Below, piece by piece: positions 382 to 18,285 of a stretch of 38,679 bases of DNA. The notes below the pieces were generated by a model. The model saw only the letters and a program-made list of their open reading frames with translations. It was not told where the DNA came from and did not search any database. Position numbers and translations under genes: made by a program. Position 1 is the first letter of the stretch, and each line of letters starts with the position of its first letter. Source of the DNA: an uncultured Lachnospiraceae bacterium (GTDB lineage Bacteria; Bacillota; Clostridia; Lachnospirales; Lachnospiraceae); the NCBI GenBank assembly GCA_902783015.1, contig CACZPL010000027.1, positions 1 to 38,679 on the forward strand. Reading direction: 5' to 3'.

Positions 382-410
382 ATTTTACAATGGAAACTTC
401 TCTTTGTCAA
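382..410 (-). promoter_or_regulatory. Sigma-A promoter of tRNA-Arg
   Basis: TTGACA (410-405), 17-nt spacer, TAAAAT (387-382). Confidence 0.7.
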
Positions 411-1048
411 GTAGGAAAATCAACTGCTCCGGAAGCCGTACAGATCATGATCATATGATCGCCGTATACGTACTCCGTAAAACGAGCCGTTCTCCCCCGA
501 ACGCACATCCCCTCCGGGTCGACGCAAAAGGAGTCAAGTGCCACGCTGATCCCCTCCCCCTTATATTTCAGATAGCTTTCCTTCATGGTCCATATCCGGA
601 AAAAGCGTTCGGAAAAGACGTGCATGTCATCCCCGGCAGCCTCGATGTACGCATACTCCTCATCCGTAAAGCATCTCTTTGCCACCGCAAGGTCCTTTTC
701 GCGAAACCGGATGCGCTCGCAGTCCGCCCCCACCGGTTCATCGCCGTAGGCGATCACACACAGGCCCTCCGTGTGGGAGAGGTTGTAGTAAAAGCCCTCC
801 GCGCCCTCAAGAAACGGTTTCTCATGCTCTCCCCTGCAGATCCGGATCTCCTCCGGCTCTAACGAAAGCTCTTTTTTTGCCGCCTCCGCGAGCAAAAGCC
901 CTGCCGTATAAGAAAGTGCCCTTGCGCCATCATACTTTAATCGAAGGAGCTTTTCTCTTCTCTCGGGATCCACTCTGCGAAGCTCCGCTTCCGTAAGTTC
1001 GCCTTTGGTAAGCTCTTCTGTTTTTCTGATCTTAATCTTAACCGACAT
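407..1048 (-). CDS. Sfp-type 4'-phosphopantetheinyl transferase
   Basis: GEHEKP, YNLSHT, VGADCE and FFRIWTMKESYLK motifs. The start is ambiguous: ATG 1048 (MSVKIK) or ATG 1090, which has AAGGA upstream. Confidence 0.92.
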   Translation of the reverse strand: MSVKIKIRKTEELTKGELTEAELRRVDPERREKLLRLKYDGARALSYTAGLLLAEAAKKELSLEPEEIRICRGEHEKPFLEGAEGFYYNLSHTEGLCVIAYGDEPVGADCERIRFREKDLAVAKRCFTDEEYAYIEAAGDDMHVFSERFFRIWTMKESYLKYKGEGISVALDSFCVDPEGMCVRGRTARFTEYVYGDHMIMICTASGAVDFPT

Positions 1049-1054
1049 ATTATA

Positions 1055-1085
1055 AAAACCTGCCGGGTGCGCAGGCACCCGGCAG
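1055..1085 (-). terminator. GC-rich hairpin, probable intrinsic terminator between the BtrH-like gene and the PPTase
   Basis: Perfect 11-bp stem CTGCCGGGTGC/GCACCCGGCAG followed by GTTTTT on the minus strand. Confidence 0.65.
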
Positions 1086-1104
1086 TTCATAATTCCTTAT
1101 TTGT

Positions 1105-2160
1105 TTACTGTGCCTCAAGCTCCGCAAGCACGTTAAAGAGGATTGCAACCTCCTTCTCCTTTGCGGTCTCAAGATGATCCTTGAAGCGGTTACCCACGGA
1201 AATGTCTTCCGTGATGGAGATACGGATGAGCAGGTTTCTTGCGGCAAGCACATTGTCCACAACAACCTTATACGCATCCAGCGTCTCCTGATTGTACTTT
1301 AAGTGTCCGGTGTTCATCAGATACTTCAGACGCTCGAGCATCAGTACCTTATGATCGTACATCACATGCAGCGCACGGATGTCGAAGTCCGGCTCCTCCG
1401 CATGGATCTGCTTGTCGATCTGTGAGAGCACCTTGTCGTATACCTTGATGCCGAATACCGTGTCATCGAAACGGTTGCGCATCATACGGAAGTGATCCTT
1501 GGTGTCCTCGGAGTTCAAATACTCGCGCAGTGTCGTCTTGATCAGTTCGAGATCAAGCTCATATACGGAATTCTCGGTGTTCTTGATGATCACGTAGAGG
1601 CCGCGTCTGCCCTTGTAGTCATCCTTGAACATGTGGTCCTCCTGTGCGGAGATCACCTCGTATCCGCGCTCGATATCCGAGAAGGATACGGTCTTGTGAG
1701 AATACTTATCCTGGAAAGTAAAGTCACCCGTGTAGAAATATTCCTCATCGCGGTTGTAACCGTAGATGAACAGCTCGTGCGGGAACTTGTAATCCACGTC
1801 TGCGTCGCAGAGGATCTTTGCCTCATCGAACACGCCGTATACGTAGCCGCCGAGATCAATGGTCTTGATGATGAAGTCAATGATATTTCCGCAATAGCTC
1901 TCGATCTGCTCCTTGGTAAGCAGCGAATATACCAGATACGGGCAAAGCTTTAAGGAGCTTGAACCCGGCATCATATCCGCAAGCAGCATGTCGTCGCCGG
2001 TGAAGATCTCCTGAATGTCGTAGCAGCGAAGCTGGATGTAGTTGCTGTAGATCCACTTCTTTGCGTTTTCGTCATCCGAGAGAATGGAAAAAAGCGTTGC
2101 ATGCCACTGCCACGAAGTGATCAGCGGAACCGTTAAGGGTAATCTTTTCTTATCTGCCAT
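1105..2160 (-). CDS. BtrH N-terminal-like (papain/transglutaminase-fold) protein, putative ACP-dependent transacylase
   Basis: WIYSNYIQL, CPYL, IIDFIIKTIDLGGYVY and FPHELFIYGYN...GDF motifs typical of clostridial BtrH-like proteins; strong RBS GGAGGAGG; lies between ACP and PPTase. Confidence 0.6.
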   Translation of the reverse strand: MADKKRLPLTVPLITSWQWHATLFSILSDDENAKKWIYSNYIQLRCYDIQEIFTGDDMLLADMMPGSSSLKLCPYLVYSLLTKEQIESYCGNIIDFIIKTIDLGGYVYGVFDEAKILCDADVDYKFPHELFIYGYNRDEEYFYTGDFTFQDKYSHKTVSFSDIERGYEVISAQEDHMFKDDYKGRRGLYVIIKNTENSVYELDLELIKTTLREYLNSEDTKDHFRMMRNRFDDTVFGIKVYDKVLSQIDKQIHAEEPDFDIRALHVMYDHKVLMLERLKYLMNTGHLKYNQETLDAYKVVVDNVLAARNLLIRISITEDISVGNRFKDHLETAKEKEVAILFNVLAELEAQ

Positions 2161-2187
2161 TTTTAGTTGCCTCCTCCGAAAAATATG

Positions 2188-2433
2188 TTAAGAAATCTTT
2201 CCCGCGATGGTCGCGGCAATATCACCGAAGCTCTCGTACTCATCGAGTGCAAGTTCGAAATCCGTAAAGGAGATGTCGAACTTTTCCTCCGCAGCTACGA
2301 GTAAGCGAATGAGCGACACGGAATTCACCCCGTATTCCTTCGTGATCGACGCATTCATATTGACGTCATCCAGATCCGGAAACTCCTCACGGATGACCTC
2401 TTCAAGCTTTTTTGTGATCTGATCTTTGTCCAT
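2188..2433 (-). CDS. Acyl/peptidyl carrier protein
   Basis: 81 aa, acidic, YGVNSV phosphopantetheine-attachment motif (GxDS variant) followed by EEKFDI. Confidence 0.9.
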   Translation of the reverse strand: MDKDQITKKLEEVIREEFPDLDDVNMNASITKEYGVNSVSLIRLLVAAEEKFDISFTDFELALDEYESFGDIAATIAGKIS

Positions 2434-6719: not shown

Positions 6720-7919
6720 CTATTCTTCGATTTCGATCACATCCTGAAGGACGTAATGGAACTCCGGTGCCGAACCGTGCTCGTTTTCCTCAAAGCCGCC
6801 GGAAATGTCAATGGTATCATTCGGATCCTCGGGATCCACGCCTTTATACGGACCCTTGAAGATGTCGATCTTTCCACGCTTGATATCCGAGATCACATCC
6901 TCCATTTTATCGGCATAGCTCTGATCCGTATTGGTGGTGTTTAATTCCACCATACGCACCCAATCCTCCGCCATACCGCCGCAGGCATCGTTGCCCACGA
7001 TCTTTGCGTCCACATACTTTTCTATATCCTTACCGGCAAGCACCGCTTCGACTGCCGCACACATATAGGGTTCCCAGTTGATCCGGGTGCTGACCAGGGT
7101 TGAGGTCGGTGCCACGTCCATCATACTCTGGTTATAACCGACATTGTATACATGATACTGCAGCTCCGACTCTTCGCAGGCCTCGGCGGGGCCCACGGTA
7201 TCCGAGTGCTGGCCGATCACGACACAGCCATCTTCGATCAGCTTCTTTGCTTCCCTCTTTTCCGTCATATAATCACTCCAGGTATTCGTATAACGAACCT
7301 TCATGGTAGCGGTAGGCATCACGGAACGGATGCCGAGAAAAAATGCGGTGTAGCCGGAGATCACCTCCGCGTAAGGGAAGGCTGCCACATAACCGACCAC
7401 CGCCTGCTCGGGCTTGATCTCCCCCTGTTCCACCATTTCCTTCAGCTTCATGCCTGCCACAACACCGGACACATAGCGACCCTCGCAGATCCTGCCCATA
7501 AAGTTGTGATAATTGTCAAGCTTTACATCCTTGTTTGCGAGATCACCCGTCGCCACACAGAACTGGATATCCGGGTATTTCTCGGCAAATTCCTTTGCGG
7601 TAAACTGATAACCGTAGCTTGTGGTGAAGATCAGATCACAGCCTTTTTTTACCAGCCGCTCCAGACCCTCGGCAGCATTTTCTTCGGGTACGTTGTTTTC
7701 CACGAAGATCTCGACACGATCCTGATATTTCACCTCGATCGCGTTCTGCGCCATGATAAAATTGTAGGTATACGGAGCACTCTCGTCATTCACATACAGG
7801 AAGCCGACCTTGATGGTTCTGTCCTCATGCATGTTCTTTTTTTGCTCATACCGGAGAAAGAAGGCAATCAGGAGCAGACAGACACAGACCACAAGGCTGA
7901 TGATATTAATTCTCTTCAT
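6720..7919 (-). CDS. BMP-family (PnrA-like) substrate-binding protein, membrane anchored
   Basis: KVGFLYV, GCDLIFTTSYGY, EGRYVSGVVAG, GYVAAFPYAEV and VIGQHSD motifs; N-terminal hydrophobic anchor; GGAGG RBS before ATG 7919. Confidence 0.9.
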   Translation of the reverse strand: MKRINIISLVVCVCLLLIAFFLRYEQKKNMHEDRTIKVGFLYVNDESAPYTYNFIMAQNAIEVKYQDRVEIFVENNVPEENAAEGLERLVKKGCDLIFTTSYGYQFTAKEFAEKYPDIQFCVATGDLANKDVKLDNYHNFMGRICEGRYVSGVVAGMKLKEMVEQGEIKPEQAVVGYVAAFPYAEVISGYTAFFLGIRSVMPTATMKVRYTNTWSDYMTEKREAKKLIEDGCVVIGQHSDTVGPAEACEESELQYHVYNVGYNQSMMDVAPTSTLVSTRINWEPYMCAAVEAVLAGKDIEKYVDAKIVGNDACGGMAEDWVRMVELNTTNTDQSYADKMEDVISDIKRGKIDIFKGPYKGVDPEDPNDTIDISGGFEENEHGSAPEFHYVLQDVIEIEE

Positions 7920-10900
7920 GTTCCGCACCTCCCTCGGAGGCTGTTTCCTCCACCTGCTGCTTCTCCTCCTCTTGCTTACCTTCCCACTGCGGCTTCAGGA
8001 TCGGATCAACCTTTCCCTCGTCCACAAGGCGGAGCATGATCTCCGCGATCTGCGGATCGAACTGAGTTCCGCTGCAGCGTTTCAATTCACTCGTCACAAA
8101 ATCCATGTCCAGCTTCTTCCTGTACACACGGTTCTGTGTCATGGCATCGAAGGCATCCGCCACACCGATGATACGGCCGTAGATCGGGATCTCTTCGCCG
8201 GCAAGGCCGTTTGCATAGCCCTTGCCGTCATAGCGCTCATGATGATAGAGCGCGCCCTCAACCACGTGATCGATCAGGGTAAAGTCCTTCAGGATCTCGG
8301 CCCCGCGCAGCACGTGGGACTTCATGATCGTGTATTCTTCATCAGTCAGCTTTGCGGGTTTATTCAGGATCCGGTCGGGGATACTGATCTTACCGATATC
8401 GTGGAGCAGCGCGGCCTTTCTCAGGTTTTCGCACTCATCCTCCGTAAAGCCCATCTCTCTTGCAAGAAGTGCCGCGTACTCGGACACGCGCCTGGAGTGC
8501 TGACTTGTATTTTCATCCTTGGCATCCACGGTCTTCGCGATGGCGAGAATGGTCTCATTTCCCATCTGTACCTGCTGCCTTGCGAGTGCAAGCTCACGCG
8601 CCTGGAGCTTTAAGGTCCGCTGCACCTGCGTTCTTGCGATAAACCAGGTGAGCCATGCCACAAAACCGCCGGCGATCAGAAGCATATACAGATAGAAAGA
8701 CCAGTGATCGTAGACCTCCATCTCTTTTTCTATGGCATAGGTACTTTCCTCGAGCACCTGACCGTCCGAGTTTAACACCGCGATCTCAAAGGTATAGGTT
8801 CCCGATGGAAGCTTTGTATAGGTCACGGTATCAAGATCATCCGCCCGCAAATACATGGGGGACTGATCATAGCCCACGAGCTGATAGCGCACCATGGGAT
8901 TTTCCACCGTATAATTGATGATCTCGGGGAACATCTCGAGCTTTGTTGCATCACGTCCGAGCAAAATGGTATTGCCGCGCTCCACGCGCTGGTATTCCTG
9001 ATCGATCCGCACACGCTTTAAGCTCATGCGGTAGGACTTCTGCATGGAGGAATAGTTATTCGTGTTTAAGGAATAAACCCCGGAATCCGTCGCGATGTAG
9101 AGCATCTCGTTTTCATCCATATAATTCCAGGAATTCGCCGTGATACCGGAGGTCAGTCCGCGGGTGGAATCCAAAAGCTCCGTCCGGAGTGAGTTTCCGA
9201 CCTCCGACAGAAGCTCCTCCTCATTTGTCACATACACACCTGCGGATGAGAGCACAAAGGTATCGCCCTCCTGTGTGGTGTACACGTCAAAGTTGTTGAA
9301 GTACGGAAACTTGTCAAGCGATCTTGTATTATACTCTTTGTCCATATAGAAGAGGCCGTTACTTGCAACGATGTAATATCCGCTCTTGTCGTAGGTCGGC
9401 GTTATACGCAACACGACACCGGAATCAAGACCTTCCGCGGCACCGATCGTCTTGGAAGGCACACCGTTTTCTATGACGCCGACTCCGTCTCCGTCGCTTC
9501 CGGCAAGGACGACGCCCGGTTCCGTCTCATACAGGCAAAGGACCATGGCGCTCAAGAACTCCTCGCCGTAGGTGATCATATTGACCATCTTATCATTCTG
9601 AAAATAGGCGACACCCAGATCGCCGGCAGCCACAACGGTGCCGTCCCGAAGCTCAATGGTGCAGCGCACCCAGTCGGAAAAGCCGGTATCCTCACGGTTG
9701 AAGGTTACAAGCTTCCCTTTGGTATCCGCCTTAAAAAGGCCCTCCCCGTAAGTGGAGATCCAGAGATTGTCCTTACTGTCGGTCATCAGGCAGCGAATGC
9801 GGACGCCGTCAAACCGTTCCGTCAGTTCGTTTGATACCTCGCGGCTTTCCTCCTCATCGATGACACAGAGTCCCTTATCCATACCGACATACAGCTTTCC
9901 CTGCCAGCGGATCACGGTGTTGGCCAGATTCTTTGTGATGCCGGCGGAGCTGTACATATCTTCGAAGGCACTCTTAGACAAGCGAAGGAGTCCGAGTCTC
10001 GAGGACGTAAACCAGAGATTTCCCTGATAGTCCACGATCATATTGTCGATGGAGTTGTCAAAGCCGTTTAAGTGGAGCATTTCGGGCTTATTTCCTTCCC
10101 GGATGCAGTACACGCCGTTTTCGGCACAGACATAGATCAGATCATCCTCAGTGACAATCACGTTGTTAATCAGATTGACCCCATTGCAGGTAACACGTTC
10201 CGTCTCCTTTAAACCGGCCTCCGAGAGTTCATACTTGATCACCTGACCGGACGAGTTTCCTACGATCAGCTTGCCGTCGTTATCAAATTCACAGCAGGTA
10301 TAGATGGTACCGTTTTCGGAAAGCTCCTTCTGAAGCACGATCTTTCGATCCTTTAATATAAACAGCTGCCCGGTGGATGTCACCGCGGCAATATAGCCGG
10401 TTTCATCCGCCGCGATGGAATGCGCATACAGGATGCCGGAAAGCTGATCACACATCTGCAATCCGGAATTCAGGCTCACCACCTGCAGAGCATCGGCAGT
10501 ACCGATGTAATAATAACCGTCCGCGCCCTGCACGATGCTTCGCACGGAATTTGACGGCAGACCGTTGTCCATGTCGACAACATTGGCAATCTCCTCGTGA
10601 ATGGCAATGGAAAGGCCGTTGTCGTTTGTTCCGATCCACAGTCTTCCCTCATTGTCCCTGTAAAGGCAGTTCACGTTTTTTACGGAATCGTATTCCGTCA
10701 TCAGGCGGAATTCCCTGCCGTTGTAGCGGTACAGACCGGCGTAGGTTCCGATCCAGAGCACACCGTCGCTCGTCTCAACGATATCGTTGGACTTTCCGCA
10801 GGGAAGACCGTTCTCGCTGTTGTAGATCGTCTGCACATAGGAATAAAAATCAAGATCATCGGAATCATCCTGCTCCTTCGCATGCACGGAAAGAGGAAGC

Positions 10901-11499
10901 GCCAGGGATGCCATGAGGGCAAGCGCCAAAAGAAGCGCGACGGGTTCCTTTTTCTTCAGCTTCATCCTGTGCTTTTTTATCTTGATACACATATACAGGA
11001 AGGCCAGCGTGAGCACCTTATCGGGGAAGTCGATATAAGCTTCTCCGATGACGCAGGCGATCACCTTGATGAAGCGGTGCTCGATCAGATAATCGATCAC
11101 ACCGTCGCCGAACAGGTTTCCGGTCATTCCGTCATAAAGGATCATATTGATGGGAACGGAAGCGGCTACCGTGACAAAGGTGACCAGGGTGCAGACACTC
11201 ATCACACGGAAAAAGCTCTCGAAGCCTCCGCGCCGAGCCATGATACCGACGATCACGCCGATCAGGATATTCACTATGGCATAAACCTGGGAACCGCTTG
11301 CAAAGAGTTCATAGATCAGGTTACCGCAGGCGCCGACACAGGCCCCGGAAAACGGGCCGAACATATAGGCCGCAAAGGCCGTTCCGAAGGAATCCAGCCA
11401 GAGCGGGAGCGTAAGCTCCACCGCAATAAACTTGCCGAACACATTTGCCAAAACGGCAAAAAGAACAACACCGATAATTTGGATATTTTTAAGCTTCAT
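7906..11499 (-). CDS. Membrane sensor: ECF S-component-like domain + beta-propeller/Y_Y_Y + HD-GYP phosphodiesterase
   Basis: N-terminal PLWLDSFGT...GPFSG; propeller repeats (DGVLWIGTYAGLYRYNG, GRLWIGTNDNGL); YTKLPSGTYTF; TM helix; HSRRVS, LLHDIGKI, HHERYDGKGY, VADAFDAM. GAGG RBS before ATG 11499. Confidence 0.88.
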   Translation of the reverse strand: MKLKNIQIIGVVLFAVLANVFGKFIAVELTLPLWLDSFGTAFAAYMFGPFSGACVGACGNLIYELFASGSQVYAIVNILIGVIVGIMARRGGFESFFRVMSVCTLVTFVTVAASVPINMILYDGMTGNLFGDGVIDYLIEHRFIKVIACVIGEAYIDFPDKVLTLAFLYMCIKIKKHRMKLKKKEPVALLLALALMASLALPLSVHAKEQDDSDDLDFYSYVQTIYNSENGLPCGKSNDIVETSDGVLWIGTYAGLYRYNGREFRLMTEYDSVKNVNCLYRDNEGRLWIGTNDNGLSIAIHEEIANVVDMDNGLPSNSVRSIVQGADGYYYIGTADALQVVSLNSGLQMCDQLSGILYAHSIAADETGYIAAVTSTGQLFILKDRKIVLQKELSENGTIYTCCEFDNDGKLIVGNSSGQVIKYELSEAGLKETERVTCNGVNLINNVIVTEDDLIYVCAENGVYCIREGNKPEMLHLNGFDNSIDNMIVDYQGNLWFTSSRLGLLRLSKSAFEDMYSSAGITKNLANTVIRWQGKLYVGMDKGLCVIDEEESREVSNELTERFDGVRIRCLMTDSKDNLWISTYGEGLFKADTKGKLVTFNREDTGFSDWVRCTIELRDGTVVAAGDLGVAYFQNDKMVNMITYGEEFLSAMVLCLYETEPGVVLAGSDGDGVGVIENGVPSKTIGAAEGLDSGVVLRITPTYDKSGYYIVASNGLFYMDKEYNTRSLDKFPYFNNFDVYTTQEGDTFVLSSAGVYVTNEEELLSEVGNSLRTELLDSTRGLTSGITANSWNYMDENEMLYIATDSGVYSLNTNNYSSMQKSYRMSLKRVRIDQEYQRVERGNTILLGRDATKLEMFPEIINYTVENPMVRYQLVGYDQSPMYLRADDLDTVTYTKLPSGTYTFEIAVLNSDGQVLEESTYAIEKEMEVYDHWSFYLYMLLIAGGFVAWLTWFIARTQVQRTLKLQARELALARQQVQMGNETILAIAKTVDAKDENTSQHSRRVSEYAALLAREMGFTEDECENLRKAALLHDIGKISIPDRILNKPAKLTDEEYTIMKSHVLRGAEILKDFTLIDHVVEGALYHHERYDGKGYANGLAGEEIPIYGRIIGVADAFDAMTQNRVYRKKLDMDFVTSELKRCSGTQFDPQIAEIMLRLVDEGKVDPILKPQWEGKQEEEKQQVEETASEGGAEHEEN

Positions 11500-11546
11500 A
11501 GAATACCTCTTACCTACGAAAAACTCACATGAACGCATACACGGTC

Positions 11547-13632: not shown

Positions 13633-13666
13633 AAAGAAAGCCACAGCTTAAGCTGCGGCTTTCTTT
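13633..13666 (-). terminator. Intrinsic terminator, possibly bidirectional
   Basis: AAAGAAAGCC(A)CAGCTT/AAGCTG(C)GGCTTTCTTT inverted repeat directly after the stop codon at 13667. Confidence 0.75.
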
Positions 13667-14821
13667 CTATGCCGTTTTCACAAAATCCGTCTGCTGGAGT
13701 CCTCCCGCAAGTCCGTCCTCGGTCAGATACATGCCGCTCCGCCGCACCTGCGCCTTCAGACTGTTATCTGTCTTTGACTTGTGCGAAAAGTCCGTGCGCA
13801 GGCTGTCAAGCAGGATGGCACCCACCTTGGCCTCCCGAAGCGACATCAGCCGGTCTGCACCGGAAACATCCTTCACCCACACGGAGAGCAAGTCGTAAGC
13901 CTCATCCGCTTCATCGATCCAGCCGTTGCCGTCCGAGTCAAGCTCCGCAAGCTCATAAAACCCGTTGCCCGTTCTTGCTCCGAAGAGTTCGCTCCCGTCA
14001 TTGATGATGCCGTCGCCGTTTTTATCATAGGCAAGGAAGCCCGCACCCTGCGCAAGCTCCGAGATATTATCTTTGATGCCGTCCGCATCGATGTCAAAGC
14101 TCCAGGTTGTGTCGGACAGTGCTGGCGGAAGACCGTCCAAGCTGATCACGATGGGATCCGTCATCAGCACCTCCACGCCCTCGAGCAAGGTCTCCGTTCT
14201 CTGTGTGAACTCCCGGGAGAGGTTCATGGTGAGATCAAAATCGATGGTCCTGCCGTCAGCCGTCTTTACCTGTCCTGTGGTCGCAAAGGTCAGCTGCTCC
14301 TCCTCATGATATTCATAGATCGAGTGTTCCACTCTGTGCCACACGTTTGTGCGCGCACCGCCTCCTGCCGCGCGGAGATCATAGATCGCCTCCTGCGCAA
14401 AGGGATCCGGCCTGGTCTGCATACCGATAAAACCGTTCATGGGATCATAATCGCCGTAGCCGAGCAGCGGATTCTGATACCCGTAGAGTCCGTAGGATGT
14501 CCGAAAGGTTCCGAGCTTGCCGAAGATCCGCTCCCGGATGCTCATGATATACTCCCGCAGGCGGTGCATGAATTCACGTGCCTGCGCAAACTGATCCTGC
14601 GCAGTGGCCGGACGTCCGCCCCACACCTCCTGCGTATGATCGGAAGCCTCCGCATTTTTGCTCGCGGCATACCGCTCGTCATAGGTTGCCTCGAAGCTTT
14701 CGGAATAGTAACGCACATTTCCCGTGCGCGCGTTTGTAAAGGTCTGTTCGTTTTTGCGCGCCAGCCGCTCGCTGCGCGCGGAATTTGCACTCAAATTGGT
14801 GTTGGACGTATTGATGATCAT
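13667..14821 (-). CDS. Protein with a C-terminal FrpC-like Ca2+-dependent self-processing module (Asp-Pro)
   Basis: TD|PIVISLDG, FDIDADG, GFLAYDKNGDGIINDGSELFG, LAELDSDGNGWIDEADEAYDLLSVW; AAGGAGG RBS before ATG 14821. Confidence 0.75.
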   Translation of the reverse strand: MIINTSNTNLSANSARSERLARKNEQTFTNARTGNVRYYSESFEATYDERYAASKNAEASDHTQEVWGGRPATAQDQFAQAREFMHRLREYIMSIRERIFGKLGTFRTSYGLYGYQNPLLGYGDYDPMNGFIGMQTRPDPFAQEAIYDLRAAGGGARTNVWHRVEHSIYEYHEEEQLTFATTGQVKTADGRTIDFDLTMNLSREFTQRTETLLEGVEVLMTDPIVISLDGLPPALSDTTWSFDIDADGIKDNISELAQGAGFLAYDKNGDGIINDGSELFGARTGNGFYELAELDSDGNGWIDEADEAYDLLSVWVKDVSGADRLMSLREAKVGAILLDSLRTDFSHKSKTDNSLKAQVRRSGMYLTEDGLAGGLQQTDFVKTA

Positions 14822-14938
14822 AAAGTCCCTCCTTTTGTTTCCTGCGTTTTTGCACAAAAAAGGAATCAGTCTACTCATTTCGGGTGACTATCAATACGTT
14901 TTTGCATATGCATGAATACGTCCTTGTATCTAACATAA

Positions 14939-14966
14939 ATATCGGGCAGATTTCTTTGTTTCATTA
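14939..14966 (-). promoter_or_regulatory. Putative sigma-28 (SigD/FliA) promoter
   Basis: TAAT-16-CCCGATAT against consensus TAAA-N15/16-GCCGATAT. Confidence 0.5.
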
Positions 14967-14985
14967 CCAAAGAAACCTGCCCGAT
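14941..14985. terminator. 18-bp-arm hairpin after yerC, probable terminator
   Basis: ATCGGGCAGATTTCTTTG / CAAAGAAACCTGCCCGAT with one mismatch. Confidence 0.6.
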
Positions 14986-14995
14986 TTTTCACATC

Positions 14996-16848: not shown

Positions 16849-18285
16849 TCAATAATGTCTGACCACTTCGAAGCGTTCCAGCTTGCAGCCCTTTTCGTCC
16901 TCGGCAAGACCCGCCTTTTTCTTTGCAATGGCAAGCTGTTCTTCTACGGTGTCCACACCGTCCAGGTTCGGCAAGAGCAGTCCGCGTCTGCCGCCCTTTG
17001 TAACGATCACGCCGTAGCGCTTTACGTCAAGTTCATCCTCGGAATCGATGGGCTCCGTCTCCGAGAGCACATCCACGGTGATCTCGAGTGCGAGAAGCTC
17101 ATCCCGCTTGATAGGCGAAAAGCGCGGATCCCTTGTAGATGCGCTGATGGCGTTGACGATGATCTCATCCGCCAGTTTATCGCACACCGGTCCGATCGTA
17201 CCGATGCAGCCCCGCAGTCTTCTCTCCTTGTGGATGGAGACAAAGGCTCCCGCCTGTCTTCCGGTAAGCTCTTCCTGCAAAGCGTTTTTTGCCTCCTCCG
17301 AGGACTCACCCGCAAGAAGTCGGTCCTTTGCGCTGCTCCAGGTGAGCGGCTCGCCGGTGATGATATAGTTTTCAAGAGACATACGCGCAAGGCGCACGTA
17401 ACCGTCTTCGTTTTCCCTCTCGGTGAGCAGGCGTTTCTTTTCCCTCTCCTGCCAGAGATCCATCATGGCGCGGTCTTCGTTATCACCCGCTGCCCGATAG
17501 GTGCAGATTCCGTAACCGACCCCGGTCACATCCGCATGGGAAAGCTTTTTCGCTTCCACGTTCTTTCTGTCAAAGGCTCCTGCCATCATGACAAAGGAAC
17601 GGTGTCCGCACTCCGCGGCTTTATCGCAAAAGTTTTCATCAAAATCAAAGAGCTCATCGAAGGCCGCGCGTCCCATCACGTCCATGATGCGCTTGTCATA
17701 TTCCGGACCGGCGGGATCGAAGCCGTAGGGGCCGTATTCCTGCAGCTTATGGGAAAGGTCACCGCTTGCCACATATACCACGTTTCTTTCAAGCGCCTCC
17801 GCAACCCTTTGGATCTCCATGCCGAGCCTGTAGTGCTCTGTCAGAGAGAGACCGGAAAGCCCGATCCTGACAAGCTTGAAGCCCGCATATTTCTGCAGGA
17901 TAAAGTAAAGCGGCACCATGACACCGTGGTCAAGCTCCCGTTTTCTGCCGCCGAGATTCCCGGCGGAAATGCCTGCCTTTTCCGCACATTCGCATAGCAA
18001 CTGCACAAAATCCGTATCGTACTCCGCCTCAAAGGCGACCTCCGGCGCACCGAACTCCGCAAAGGACCCGGTGGTCCCGCTTCCCGGCGCAATGTGCATA
18101 TAATCGCTATACATCACCGTATGCGGTGACGAGATCACGATGGTATCCGGTGCGATCCGCGCGATCTCCTCCGCAACCTTTTCATATGCCGCTGTCGTTT
18201 CCGGCACCTGCTTTTCGCCGCCGCGCCCCACCTGCGGCACGATCATCGGCGGATGAGGCACCATAAAGCCCGCTGTGATTCCCAT
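16849..18285 (-). CDS. amrA: AmmeMemoRadiSam system protein: LigB/Memo-like domain fused to AMMECR1 domain
   Basis: PHPP, SPH, DHG, SGDLSH and ECG motifs of the Memo/LigB fold; GAFVSIH..LRGCIGT and DPRF of AMMECR1. Confidence 0.88.
   Translation of the reverse strand: MGITAGFMVPHPPMIVPQVGRGGEKQVPETTAAYEKVAEEIARIAPDTIVISSPHTVMYSDYMHIAPGSGTTGSFAEFGAPEVAFEAEYDTDFVQLLCECAEKAGISAGNLGGRKRELDHGVMVPLYFILQKYAGFKLVRIGLSGLSLTEHYRLGMEIQRVAEALERNVVYVASGDLSHKLQEYGPYGFDPAGPEYDKRIMDVMGRAAFDELFDFDENFCDKAAECGHRSFVMMAGAFDRKNVEAKKLSHADVTGVGYGICTYRAAGDNEDRAMMDLWQEREKKRLLTERENEDGYVRLARMSLENYIITGEPLTWSSAKDRLLAGESSEEAKNALQEELTGRQAGAFVSIHKERRLRGCIGTIGPVCDKLADEIIVNAISASTRDPRFSPIKRDELLALEITVDVLSETEPIDSEDELDVKRYGVIVTKGGRRGLLLPNLDGVDTVEEQLAIAKKKAGLAEDEKGCKLERFEVVRHY

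What the first reader, a model, noticed from the sequence alone, without database searches (positions are those of the whole stretch)
13667..14821. FrpC-type 'clip-and-link' self-processing module in a Firmicute protein with no RTX repeats
Seen: from Asp222-Pro223 (codons 14158-14153) the last 162 aa read DPIVISLDG...FDIDADG...GFLAYDKNGDGIINDGSELFG...GFYELAELDSDGNGWIDEADEAYDLLSVW...LMSLRE...SGMYLTEDG. This is collinear with the Neisseria FrpC self-processing module as I recall it (D|PLALDLDGDG...DLNGNGIIDNGAELFG...LAELDSNGD...W). Established: in FrpC and ApxIVA, Ca2+ triggers Asp-Pro cleavage and the freed Asp forms an isopeptide bond with a Lys on another protein. Here there are no RTX repeats, no T1SS genes, no Sec signal and no cell-wall anchor. 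Inference: a Ca2+-activated covalent glue that attaches a 222-aa N-terminal domain to neighbouring, host or filament proteins, outside the known Gram-negative RTX context.
Basis: partly seen in the sequence, partly recalled or inferred. Interest (0 to 1): 0.8.

Follow-up and report, generated by a model that had tools for sequence, protein, structure and literature searches.

The report
Flagellum-linked stand-alone self-cleaving protein family
This gut-bacterium protein carries the calcium-binding self-cutting module known from large Neisseria surface proteins, but its family sits behind flagellar-type promoter motifs and was found only in genomes with flagellar genes, so it is likely exported through the flagellum and would then cut itself and possibly glue its front half to a neighbouring protein.

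Summary
Residues 223-384 have the FrpC self-processing-module (SPM) fold (Z 18.5, 149 residues), starting exactly at Pro223. The domain is already in Pfam (PF26745), and an SPM-like region is published for a Firmicute RTX protein, so 'SPM in a Firmicute' is not new. The context is new. These 350-420 aa RTX-free proteins form their own branch. A sigma-28 motif precedes 66 of 95 homologues versus 5 of 531 neighbouring genes. This gene's site ranks 4th genome-wide. All 60 carriers among 251 family genomes have flhA, and none of the 119 flhA-negative genomes is a carrier. This points to a late flagellar gene, likely exported through the flagellum. Cleavage is untested. The Asp is kept in 482 of 482 sequences but lost in 5 of 16 long SPMs. 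Against it, FrpC's W451, D456, D478 and D579 are replaced and two calcium sites are eroded. No acceptor lysine is known. Verdict: new variant of a known kind. The scan's look-ups showed no earlier report of this family.

The parts
13667..14821 (-). Gene for the 384-aa stand-alone SPM protein (no RTX repeats, no Sec signal)
14939..14966 (-). Predicted sigma-28 promoter: -35 TAAT (14966-14963), 16 nt, -10 CCCGATAT (14946-14939), about 125 nt upstream of the start
   Evidence: Rank 4 of 79,471 candidate sites in the genome with a matrix built without this site; family enrichment
14932..14995 (-). Strong hairpin after the upstream yerC-like gene; the predicted sigma-28 promoter lies within its loop and 3' arm
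   Evidence: -32.8 kcal/mol, z -9.95; neighbour named
14828..14833 (-). Ribosome-binding site AGGAGG
   Evidence: sequence
14156..14821 (-). N-terminal fragment, residues 1-222 (25.4 kDa): predicted long strands 3-30, 36-48, 159-187 and 192-219, a helix 74-100 and a disordered linker about 104-139; no significant fold or Pfam match
14213..14305 (-). Conserved hairpin E173-R203 (ExExxxFxxxGxVxTADGRxIxFxxxxxMSR); pairs with the first strand; its tip covaries with the SPM's second calcium loop
14153..14158 (-). Asp222-Pro223, equivalent to the scissile D414-P415 of FrpC
   Evidence: D in 482 of 482 and P in 481 of 482 sequences; register
13670..14155 (-). SPM domain, residues 223-384 (17.4 kDa), ending at the C-terminus
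   Evidence: Pfam PF26745
14078..14095 (-). DxDxDG loop D243-G248, nearly invariant in this family, in the region that is a dispensable flexible loop in FrpC; candidate replacement calcium site (inferred)
   Evidence: PMC7078468
13988..14026 (-). EF-hand-like loop D266-E278 (= FrpC D462-E474), intact
13904..13939 (-). EF-hand-like loop D295-D306 (= FrpC D499-D510/511), intact, with a family-specific Trp301
13685..13693 (-). Q377-T378-D379: Q377 stands where FrpC has D579; D379 is a family-specific near-invariant Asp (FrpC L581)
13633..13666 (-). Hairpin directly after the stop codon, likely the terminator, making the gene its own transcription unit
   Evidence: -24.4 kcal/mol, z -6.41; the next gene has its own sigma-70-like site at 13629-13601

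Best explanation
The protein is an RTX-free member of the FrpC self-processing fold whose gene is predicted to be switched on by the flagellar sigma-28 factor; it is likely exported unfolded through the flagellar channel, would fold on meeting outside calcium, would cut itself between Asp222 and Pro223, and would link the freed Asp of its long beta-hairpin front half to a lysine of a neighbouring protein. Shown by calls: the fold, the register and conservation of Asp-Pro, two intact calcium loops, the promoter motif, and the restriction to genomes with flagellar genes. Inferred, with my odds for each step: sigma-28 control about 0.9; export by the flagellar type III system about 0.7; calcium-triggered cleavage about 0.6; productive cross-link if cleaved about 0.6. 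The most likely acceptor is a protein at the exit site (filament, cap or another copy); this is a guess. Family-specific residues (N/D286 with Q/H377, D379, the D243-G248 loop, W301) would have to replace FrpC's lost D478, D579, D456 and W451.
For: Fold and register. Asp222 is kept in 482 of 482 family sequences and Pro223 in 481 of 482, although the preceding domain averages 16% column identity. The same Asp is lost in 5 of 16 long SPM proteins, so the fold does not need it. Port residues L475, G477 and G491 are kept (L279 448 of 481, G281 481 of 481, G287 476 of 481). D579N is tolerated in FrpC and D478N D579N still cleaves (PMC7078468), and the family has Q in 328 of 480 at the D579 position. 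Sigma-28 motif with at most 2 mismatches: 66 of 95 upstream regions versus 5 of 531 neighbour genes, 2 of 95 reverse strands and a shuffle mean of 1.5; 14 of 26 versus 1 of 26 in a second, phylum-wide set. The family-built matrix also finds this genome's flgM (rank 6), mbl-flgF/G (9), flgB (19) and flagellin (22) promoters. flhA is present in 60 of 60 carriers against a baseline of 132 of 251, and in 32 of 32 against 230 of 301. Of 50 further carrier genomes, 46 have flhA and the other 4 have flagellin-family genes; 4 of 4 more from a Proteobacteria-centred sample have flhA. Two loci lie divergently beside flaG-fliS. No Sec or membrane segment. Precedent: sigma-28-dependent non-flagellar proteins are secreted by the flagellum in Campylobacter (PMC5223770), and the SPM acts only at outside calcium levels (PMC7078468).
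Against: No experiment shows expression, export, cleavage or cross-linking. Both side-chain ligands of FrpC's fifth, bond-twisting calcium site are changed: D478 becomes T, A or P, and D478A strongly slows FrpC; D579 becomes Q or H. W451 of the Trp pair and port becomes Q, M, F or other (E in this protein). D456 and much of the D419-G424 site are lost, and the D521-E532 loop is shortened. Most long SPMs keep these residues. The N-terminal fragment has no conserved lysine, and no acceptor is identified. About 30% of upstream regions lack the motif. This gene's own site overlaps a hairpin arm. Neighbours are mostly unrelated to flagella. More than half of the flhA-positive genomes in the family sample lack the gene (72 of 132), so it is not a core flagellar part. 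Related genomes are not independent samples.
Confidence: 0.45

Rival explanations
1. A disarmed SPM: a sigma-28, flagellum-exported calcium-binding protein that keeps the fold and the Asp-Pro for structure but does not cleave. It would act as a calcium-folded filament-associated or surface protein.
For: W451, D456, D478 and D579 equivalents are all replaced and two of four calcium sites are eroded. Covariation ties the N-terminal tip (I2, I3, T187, A188) to the SPM loop (A305, N268, W301, L294), as for one intact unit (only I2-A305 is strong).
Against: The Asp is kept in 482 of 482 family sequences but lost in 5 of 16 long SPMs. Port Gly/Leu residues are kept. Amide substitution at D579 is tolerated in FrpC. 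The covarying N/D286-Q/H377 pair next to the site suggests compensation.
Confidence: 0.27
2. Clip without link: cleavage is a calcium-timed maturation switch. The anhydride hydrolyses and the freed long beta-hairpins assemble into an oligomer (fibre, ring or beta-barrel).
For: Four strands of up to 28-29 residues at pLDDT above 85-90 form an open sheet with no core of its own. The best, non-significant structural neighbours are pore-state MACPF hairpins (8B0F Z 4.7; Foldseek E about 1e-3). There is no conserved lysine. Hydrolysis competes with ligation in engineered SPMs (PMC7846742).
Against: Those fold matches are at noise level and only reflect long hairpins. The distal strands are Ser/Thr/Glu-rich on both faces, with no membrane-facing hydrophobic belt.
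Confidence: 0.2
3. A cytoplasmic protein co-regulated with motility, or one exported by a type I system encoded elsewhere.
For: Many sigma-28 genes are cytoplasmic (general knowledge). No export signal can be recognised for type III substrates. The genome was not searched for type I systems.
Against: The SPM needs about 150 uM calcium, found only outside (PMC7078468). There are no RTX repeats, and the protein ends at the SPM in 543 of 562 sequences (150-169 aa after the Pro), leaving no type I tail. Long SPM proteins also occur in an flhA-negative genome (G169), the stand-alone form does not.
Confidence: 0.08

Closest known systems
FrpC / FrpA / ApxIVA self-processing module (PDB 6SJW, 6SJX; PMC7078468)
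   Same: Fold over 149 residues, N-terminal Asp-Pro in register, EF-like loops D462-E474 and D499-D510, W519, port residues L475, G477 and G491.
   Different: Host protein is 384 aa, not over 1000. No RTX repeats or type I tail; the SPM is C-terminal. W451, D456, D478 and D579 are replaced and the D521-E532 loop is shortened. Invariant D379, W301 and the D243-G248 loop are added. Sigma-28/flagellar context.
Pfam PF26745 'SPM' (Pfam 38.1, as labelled)
   Same: The homologues and the stored copy of this protein carry this family; Atlas clusters are auto-named 'SPM domain-containing protein'.
   Different: A domain label only. I saw no description of the stand-alone architecture, the N-terminal hairpin domain or a flagellar link. 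The local Pfam copy lacks a matching model, so I could not read the entry.
Filifactor alocis FtxA (PMC7692872) and other long SPM proteins of Firmicutes (L146-L155, P0127)
   Same: SPM-like region in a Gram-positive lineage.
   Different: These are long proteins (open frames of about 700-2070 aa). FtxA and P0127 carry RTX-type repeats; I did not examine the repeats of L146-L155. The sampled ones mostly keep W451, D456 and D/E579 and lie on the other side of a 100/100 branch.
Campylobacter Fed/Cia/FspA proteins (PMC5223770)
   Same: Non-flagellar proteins made with flagellin under sigma-28, some secreted by the flagellar type III system.
   Different: An analogy of regulation and route only; no sequence comparison was made, and no self-processing is mentioned in the passages read.

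Membership tests
FrpC-type self-processing module (domain) | SPM fold | tested here: met
   VIA Z 18.5, rmsd 2.9, 149 aligned; Foldseek E 2.7e-10; predicted model, mean pLDDT 76
FrpC-type self-processing module (domain) | Asp-Pro at the domain's N-terminus | tested here: met
   P223 aligns to chain residue 1 = P415; D 482 of 482, P 481 of 482
FrpC-type self-processing module (domain) | EF-like loops D462-E474 and D499-D511 | tested here: met
   D266, E278, D295, D297 and D306 in 481 of 481
FrpC-type self-processing module (domain) | Calcium sites D521-E532 and D419-G424 + D456 | tested here: not met
   Loop shortened by about 4 residues; D456 becomes S/A/N and D419 becomes N/S
FrpC-type self-processing module (domain) | W451-W519 pair | tested here: not met
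   W519 = W315 kept (473 of 481); W451 position is Q/M/F/R/S/E
FrpC-type self-processing module (domain) | Fifth-site ligands D478 and D579 | tested here: not met
   A282 (T228, A157, P74) and Q377 (Q328, H146 of 480); possible compensation not testable here
FrpC-type self-processing module (domain) | Ca2+-dependent Asp-Pro cleavage and Asp-Lys isopeptide formation | not testable with these tools
   needs bench work
RTX proteins / type I substrates | GGxGxDxL repeats and a C-terminal tail after the SPM | tested here: not met
   0 of 99 with the repeat; 543 of 562 end 150-169 aa after the Pro
Sigma-28 flagellar regulon | TAAA-N15/16-GCCGATA(T/A)-type promoter | tested here: met
   consensus as given in PMC3720852
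Sigma-28 flagellar regulon | Occurs only with flagellar genes | tested here: met
   60 of 60, 32 of 32 (G000 and G160 in both sets), 50 of 50, 4 of 4
Sigma-28 flagellar regulon | Transcription depends on sigma-28 and starts at the predicted site | tested here: inconclusive
   Four RNA runs gave only scattered short contigs
Flagellar type III export substrates | Secretion depends on the flagellar export gate | not testable with these tools
   only indirect: no Sec or TM segment, regulon evidence
Beta-pore-forming proteins (MACPF/gasdermin-like) | Significant fold match and membrane-facing hairpins | tested here: inconclusive
   best Z 4.7; distal strands polar

The most novel reading that the evidence does not exclude
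A widespread, undescribed class of late flagellar export substrates uses the flagellum as the secretion route and outside calcium as the trigger. It covalently staples a long beta-hairpin domain onto the filament, onto itself or onto host or substrate surfaces: a clip-and-link system with a rewired active site, independent of RTX and type I secretion, in roughly 45% of flagellated genera of this gut family and in Desulfobacterota and Betaproteobacteria.
Probability: 0.3. Interest if true: 0.85.

Novelty: new variant of a known kind. Interest (0 to 1): 0.66.

Why it matters
[quoted passage not shown] Here is a large RTX-free branch (2,524 clusters at 50% identity with E below 1e-30 to the profile) tied to the flagellar regulon of common gut and rumen bacteria and of other phyla. 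If it cleaves, it extends clip-and-link chemistry to a second secretion route. It would also give a natural test of the proposed fifth-calcium mechanism, since both of its side-chain ligands are swapped. It could name a new covalent modifier of flagella or an adhesion factor in commensals whose flagellins are studied as immune stimuli. And it would supply 160-residue SPM variants for NeissLock-type protein ligation, where the homologues named in the text I read are all from Neisseriaceae (PMC12538545). If it does not cleave, it is still a previously unnoticed sigma-28 gene family.

Tried and rejected
The local Pfam and NCBIfam copies gave no family for the protein or for the N-domain. N-domain fold searches gave nothing significant; this is not evidence of a new fold. 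A four-copy complex prediction of residues 1-222 gave no verdict (score 0.30, mark 0.42). The Atlas search on the N-domain did not complete. RNA runs covered the region only with scattered short contigs, some from other organisms, so expression is not shown. A conserved operon partner was rejected: no neighbour occurs in more than 14 of 80 loci. Only 133 of 221 representative neighbours and 85 of 180 further ORFs were sent to Pfam. No full-length relative was found in plasmids (47 records, SPM-region hits only) or phages (1 record, SPM only). My first mapping of FrpC D579 to D379 was wrong and was corrected to Q377. A second sigma-28-like site at 14884 ranks 1430 and was dropped. The upstream ATG at 14878 was rejected as the start. 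The DP count among 562 sequences is circular (selected on DP) and is not used. Literature searches found no paper on this family; the library lacks most subscription papers, including the original 2004 clip-and-link paper, and I read no supplements. Earlier scan notes on archaeal Gly-x-Asp-Pro proteins concern other families and were not used.

Full report
Observation. The reading frame 14821->13667 on the minus strand encodes 384 aa, with a ribosome-binding site before 14821. Sequence search of the PDB returns only the FrpC self-processing module (E 2.5e-9; profile E 6.5e-12). An AlphaFold2 model built on 115 homologues matches 6SJX by Foldseek (E 2.7e-10) and 6SJW by VIA-align (Z 18.5, rmsd 2.9, 149 residues; model 223-384 on chain 1-172; next hit Z 4.7). 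Pro223 therefore sits on FrpC Pro415.

What is already known. Homologues carry the precomputed Pfam label PF26745, named SPM in the Atlas. Kuban et al. [quoted passage not shown] A passage in PMC7692872 reports an SPM-like region in FtxA of the Firmicute Filifactor alocis. Long SPM proteins also turned up in Firmicute genomes here. So an SPM in a Firmicute is not new in itself.

The family. The protein belongs to a large family, mostly 350-420 aa: 2,703 hits among 7,995 candidates; 2,524 representatives at E below 1e-30. Named carriers include Lachnospiraceae, Oscillospiraceae, Syntrophomonadaceae, Desulfobacteraceae and Betaproteobacteria. The N-terminal domain travels with the SPM: 119 of the 120 listed hits of an N-domain profile carry PF26745, and the exception lies on a 1.2-kb contig. 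In a tree of 49 SPM cores, 33 stand-alone and 16 long-protein sequences fall on two sides of one branch with 100/100 support (midpoint root, FrpC itself not included). In 99 family proteins there was no RTX repeat, no LPxTG and no signal-like hydrophobic stretch. The genes are solitary: no neighbour recurs in more than 14 of 80 loci. In the window the gene is flanked by two strong hairpins, and the next gene has its own sigma-70-like site.

Residues that decide activity. FrpC numbering was mapped through; counts are (482 distinct sequences; gap rows from partial matches left out). Kept: Asp-Pro (482 of 482, 481 of 482), the loops D462-E474 and D499-D510, W519 (473 of 481), and port residues L475, G477 and G491. 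Changed: W451 (Q, M, F and others; E here), D456 (S mostly), D419 (N or S), the D521-E532 loop (about four residues shorter), D478 (T, A or P) and D579 (Q 328, H 146 of 480). In FrpC, D478A strongly slows cleavage, D579A abolishes it, D579N does not affect it, and the D478N D579N double mutant still cleaves. The family adds its own near-invariant residues: D379, W301, the D243-x-D245-x-D247-G248 loop, and an N/D286-Q/H377 pair that covaries beside the site. Among the 16 long SPMs the D579 column is always D or E, but the scissile Asp is missing in 5. The fold thus tolerates loss of the Asp, and its complete retention in the stand-alone family argues for selection on it. I put cleavage at about 0.6.

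The flagellar link. In 251 genomes of the window's family (about one per genus, nearly all at least 90% complete), 60 carry the full stand-alone form (six genomes with only long or partial SPM hits were counted as non-carriers). All 60 have flhA, against 132 of 251 overall; none of the 119 flhA-negative genomes is a carrier. Across the phylum, 32 of 32 carriers have flhA against 230 of 301 (two long or fragment hits excluded; two genomes shared with the first set). Of 50 of the 80 locus genomes, 46 have flhA and the other four have flagellin-family genes. Four further carriers from a sample centred on a betaproteobacterium all have flhA. Naive Fisher values are 4e-21 and 2e-4; relatedness inflates them.

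The promoter. A TAAA-N15/16-GCCGATA(T/A) motif with at most two mismatches lies within 250 nt upstream of 66 of 95 homologues. It lies upstream of 5 of 531 neighbouring genes and on 2 of 95 reverse strands, and shuffles give 1.5 on average with a maximum of 5 (12 of 111 hits dropped for an unclear start or short flank, 4 as duplicates). A second set gave 14 of 26 against 1 of 26 (3 dropped). The neighbour control includes genes inside operons, so the shuffle and reverse-strand controls are the fairer ones. This is the sigma-28 consensus used for Roseburia and Eubacterium flagellin genes (PMC3720852 passages). A matrix built from homologues without this gene ranks the window's site, TAAT-N16-CCCGATAT at 14966-14939, 4th of 79,471 candidates in the genome. 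It also recovers sites before flgM-flgN-flgK (6th), mbl-flgF/G (9th), flgB-flgC-fliE (19th) and flagellin (22nd). Many other top-ranked sites precede no plausible gene, so rank alone is not proof. Two loci lie divergently next to flaG-fliS.

The N-terminal half. Modelled alone, it has four long strands (3-30, 36-48, 159-187, 192-219), a helix (74-100) and a disordered linker. Covariation supports the pairing of strand 1 with strand 3 and the 173-203 hairpin. It also suggests that the N-terminus and the TADG turn touch the SPM's second calcium loop (I2-A305 strong; T187-W301, A188-L294 weak). No fold match is significant; the best are long hairpins of MACPF pores at Z 4.7. The distal strands are polar on both faces, and there is no conserved lysine.

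Mechanism. The best reading is a late flagellar gene whose product leaves unfolded through the flagellar type III channel, as sigma-28-dependent non-flagellar proteins do in Campylobacter (PMC5223770 passages). It would fold in outside calcium, which the SPM needs, cleave at Asp222-Pro223 and acylate a nearby lysine on the filament, the cap or another copy. Fold, conservation, promoter motif and co-occurrence are shown. Export, cleavage, linkage and partner are inferred. Whole chain 0.45. Rivals: a disarmed calcium-binding form (0.27), cleavage as a maturation switch without linkage (0.2), and a cytoplasmic or type I route (0.08).

Novelty. The domain is a known kind and is catalogued. The stand-alone architecture, the rewired active-site surroundings and the tie to the flagellar regulon were not found in eight literature searches or in four look-ups of this scan's earlier notes. 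The library lacks most subscription journals. I read no supplements: Fig. S6 of PMC7078468 and the homologue panel in Fig. S1 of PMC12538545 (part 1 of 4 read) could bear on the residue argument and on novelty. Of PMC7846742 I saw passages only. Verdict: new variant of a known kind, interest 0.66.

Noticed in passing
window 7906-11538 (-): A 1210-aa protein joins an ECF S-component-like N-terminus, a two-component-type beta-propeller with Y_Y_Y domain and a C-terminal HD-GYP domain: a membrane-sensor c-di-GMP phosphodiesterase with an unusual transporter-like front end.
   Followed up: no
window 16849-18285 (-): Fusion of a LigB/Memo-like domain and an AMMECR1 domain, i.e. AmmeMemoRadiSam proteins B and A in one chain.
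   Followed up: no
window 407-2433 (-): Acyl carrier protein, a 351-aa protein without Pfam match and a phosphopantetheinyl transferase in a row, downstream of a MarR gene and two ABC exporter genes.
   Followed up: no
L156:1236-1874 (-) = G000:C109: The genome's top-ranked sigma-28-like site precedes a roughly 200-aa protein with no Pfam match: another candidate uncharacterised late flagellar gene.
   Followed up: partly
L146-L155 (G166, G105, G128, G144, G193, G222, G169, G420): Long SPM-containing proteins (open frames 693-2070 aa) in Firmicute genomes; 9 of 10 keep Asp-Pro and most keep W451 and D456; one is in an flhA-negative genome.
   Followed up: partly
P0125, P0129: Long SPM proteins whose first Asp-Pro is replaced; P0125 has two SPM-like copies in tandem, both without Asp-Pro.
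   Followed up: no
L069:3782-6069 and L119: Tandem pair of family genes; the first has a sigma-28 motif and the second does not, as expected for a two-gene operon.
   Followed up: partly
L017, L027, L035, L056, L081: Desulfobacteraceae members have C-terminal extensions after the SPM and lie divergently from a CheD-HDOD gene in 5 of 5 loci. P0122 and P0124 also have long tails.
   Followed up: no
L004, L065, L069: Records titled Bacteroides, Muribaculaceae and Bacteroidota carry the gene with flhA or flagellin and Firmicute-like sequences; their titles may be misassigned.
   Followed up: no
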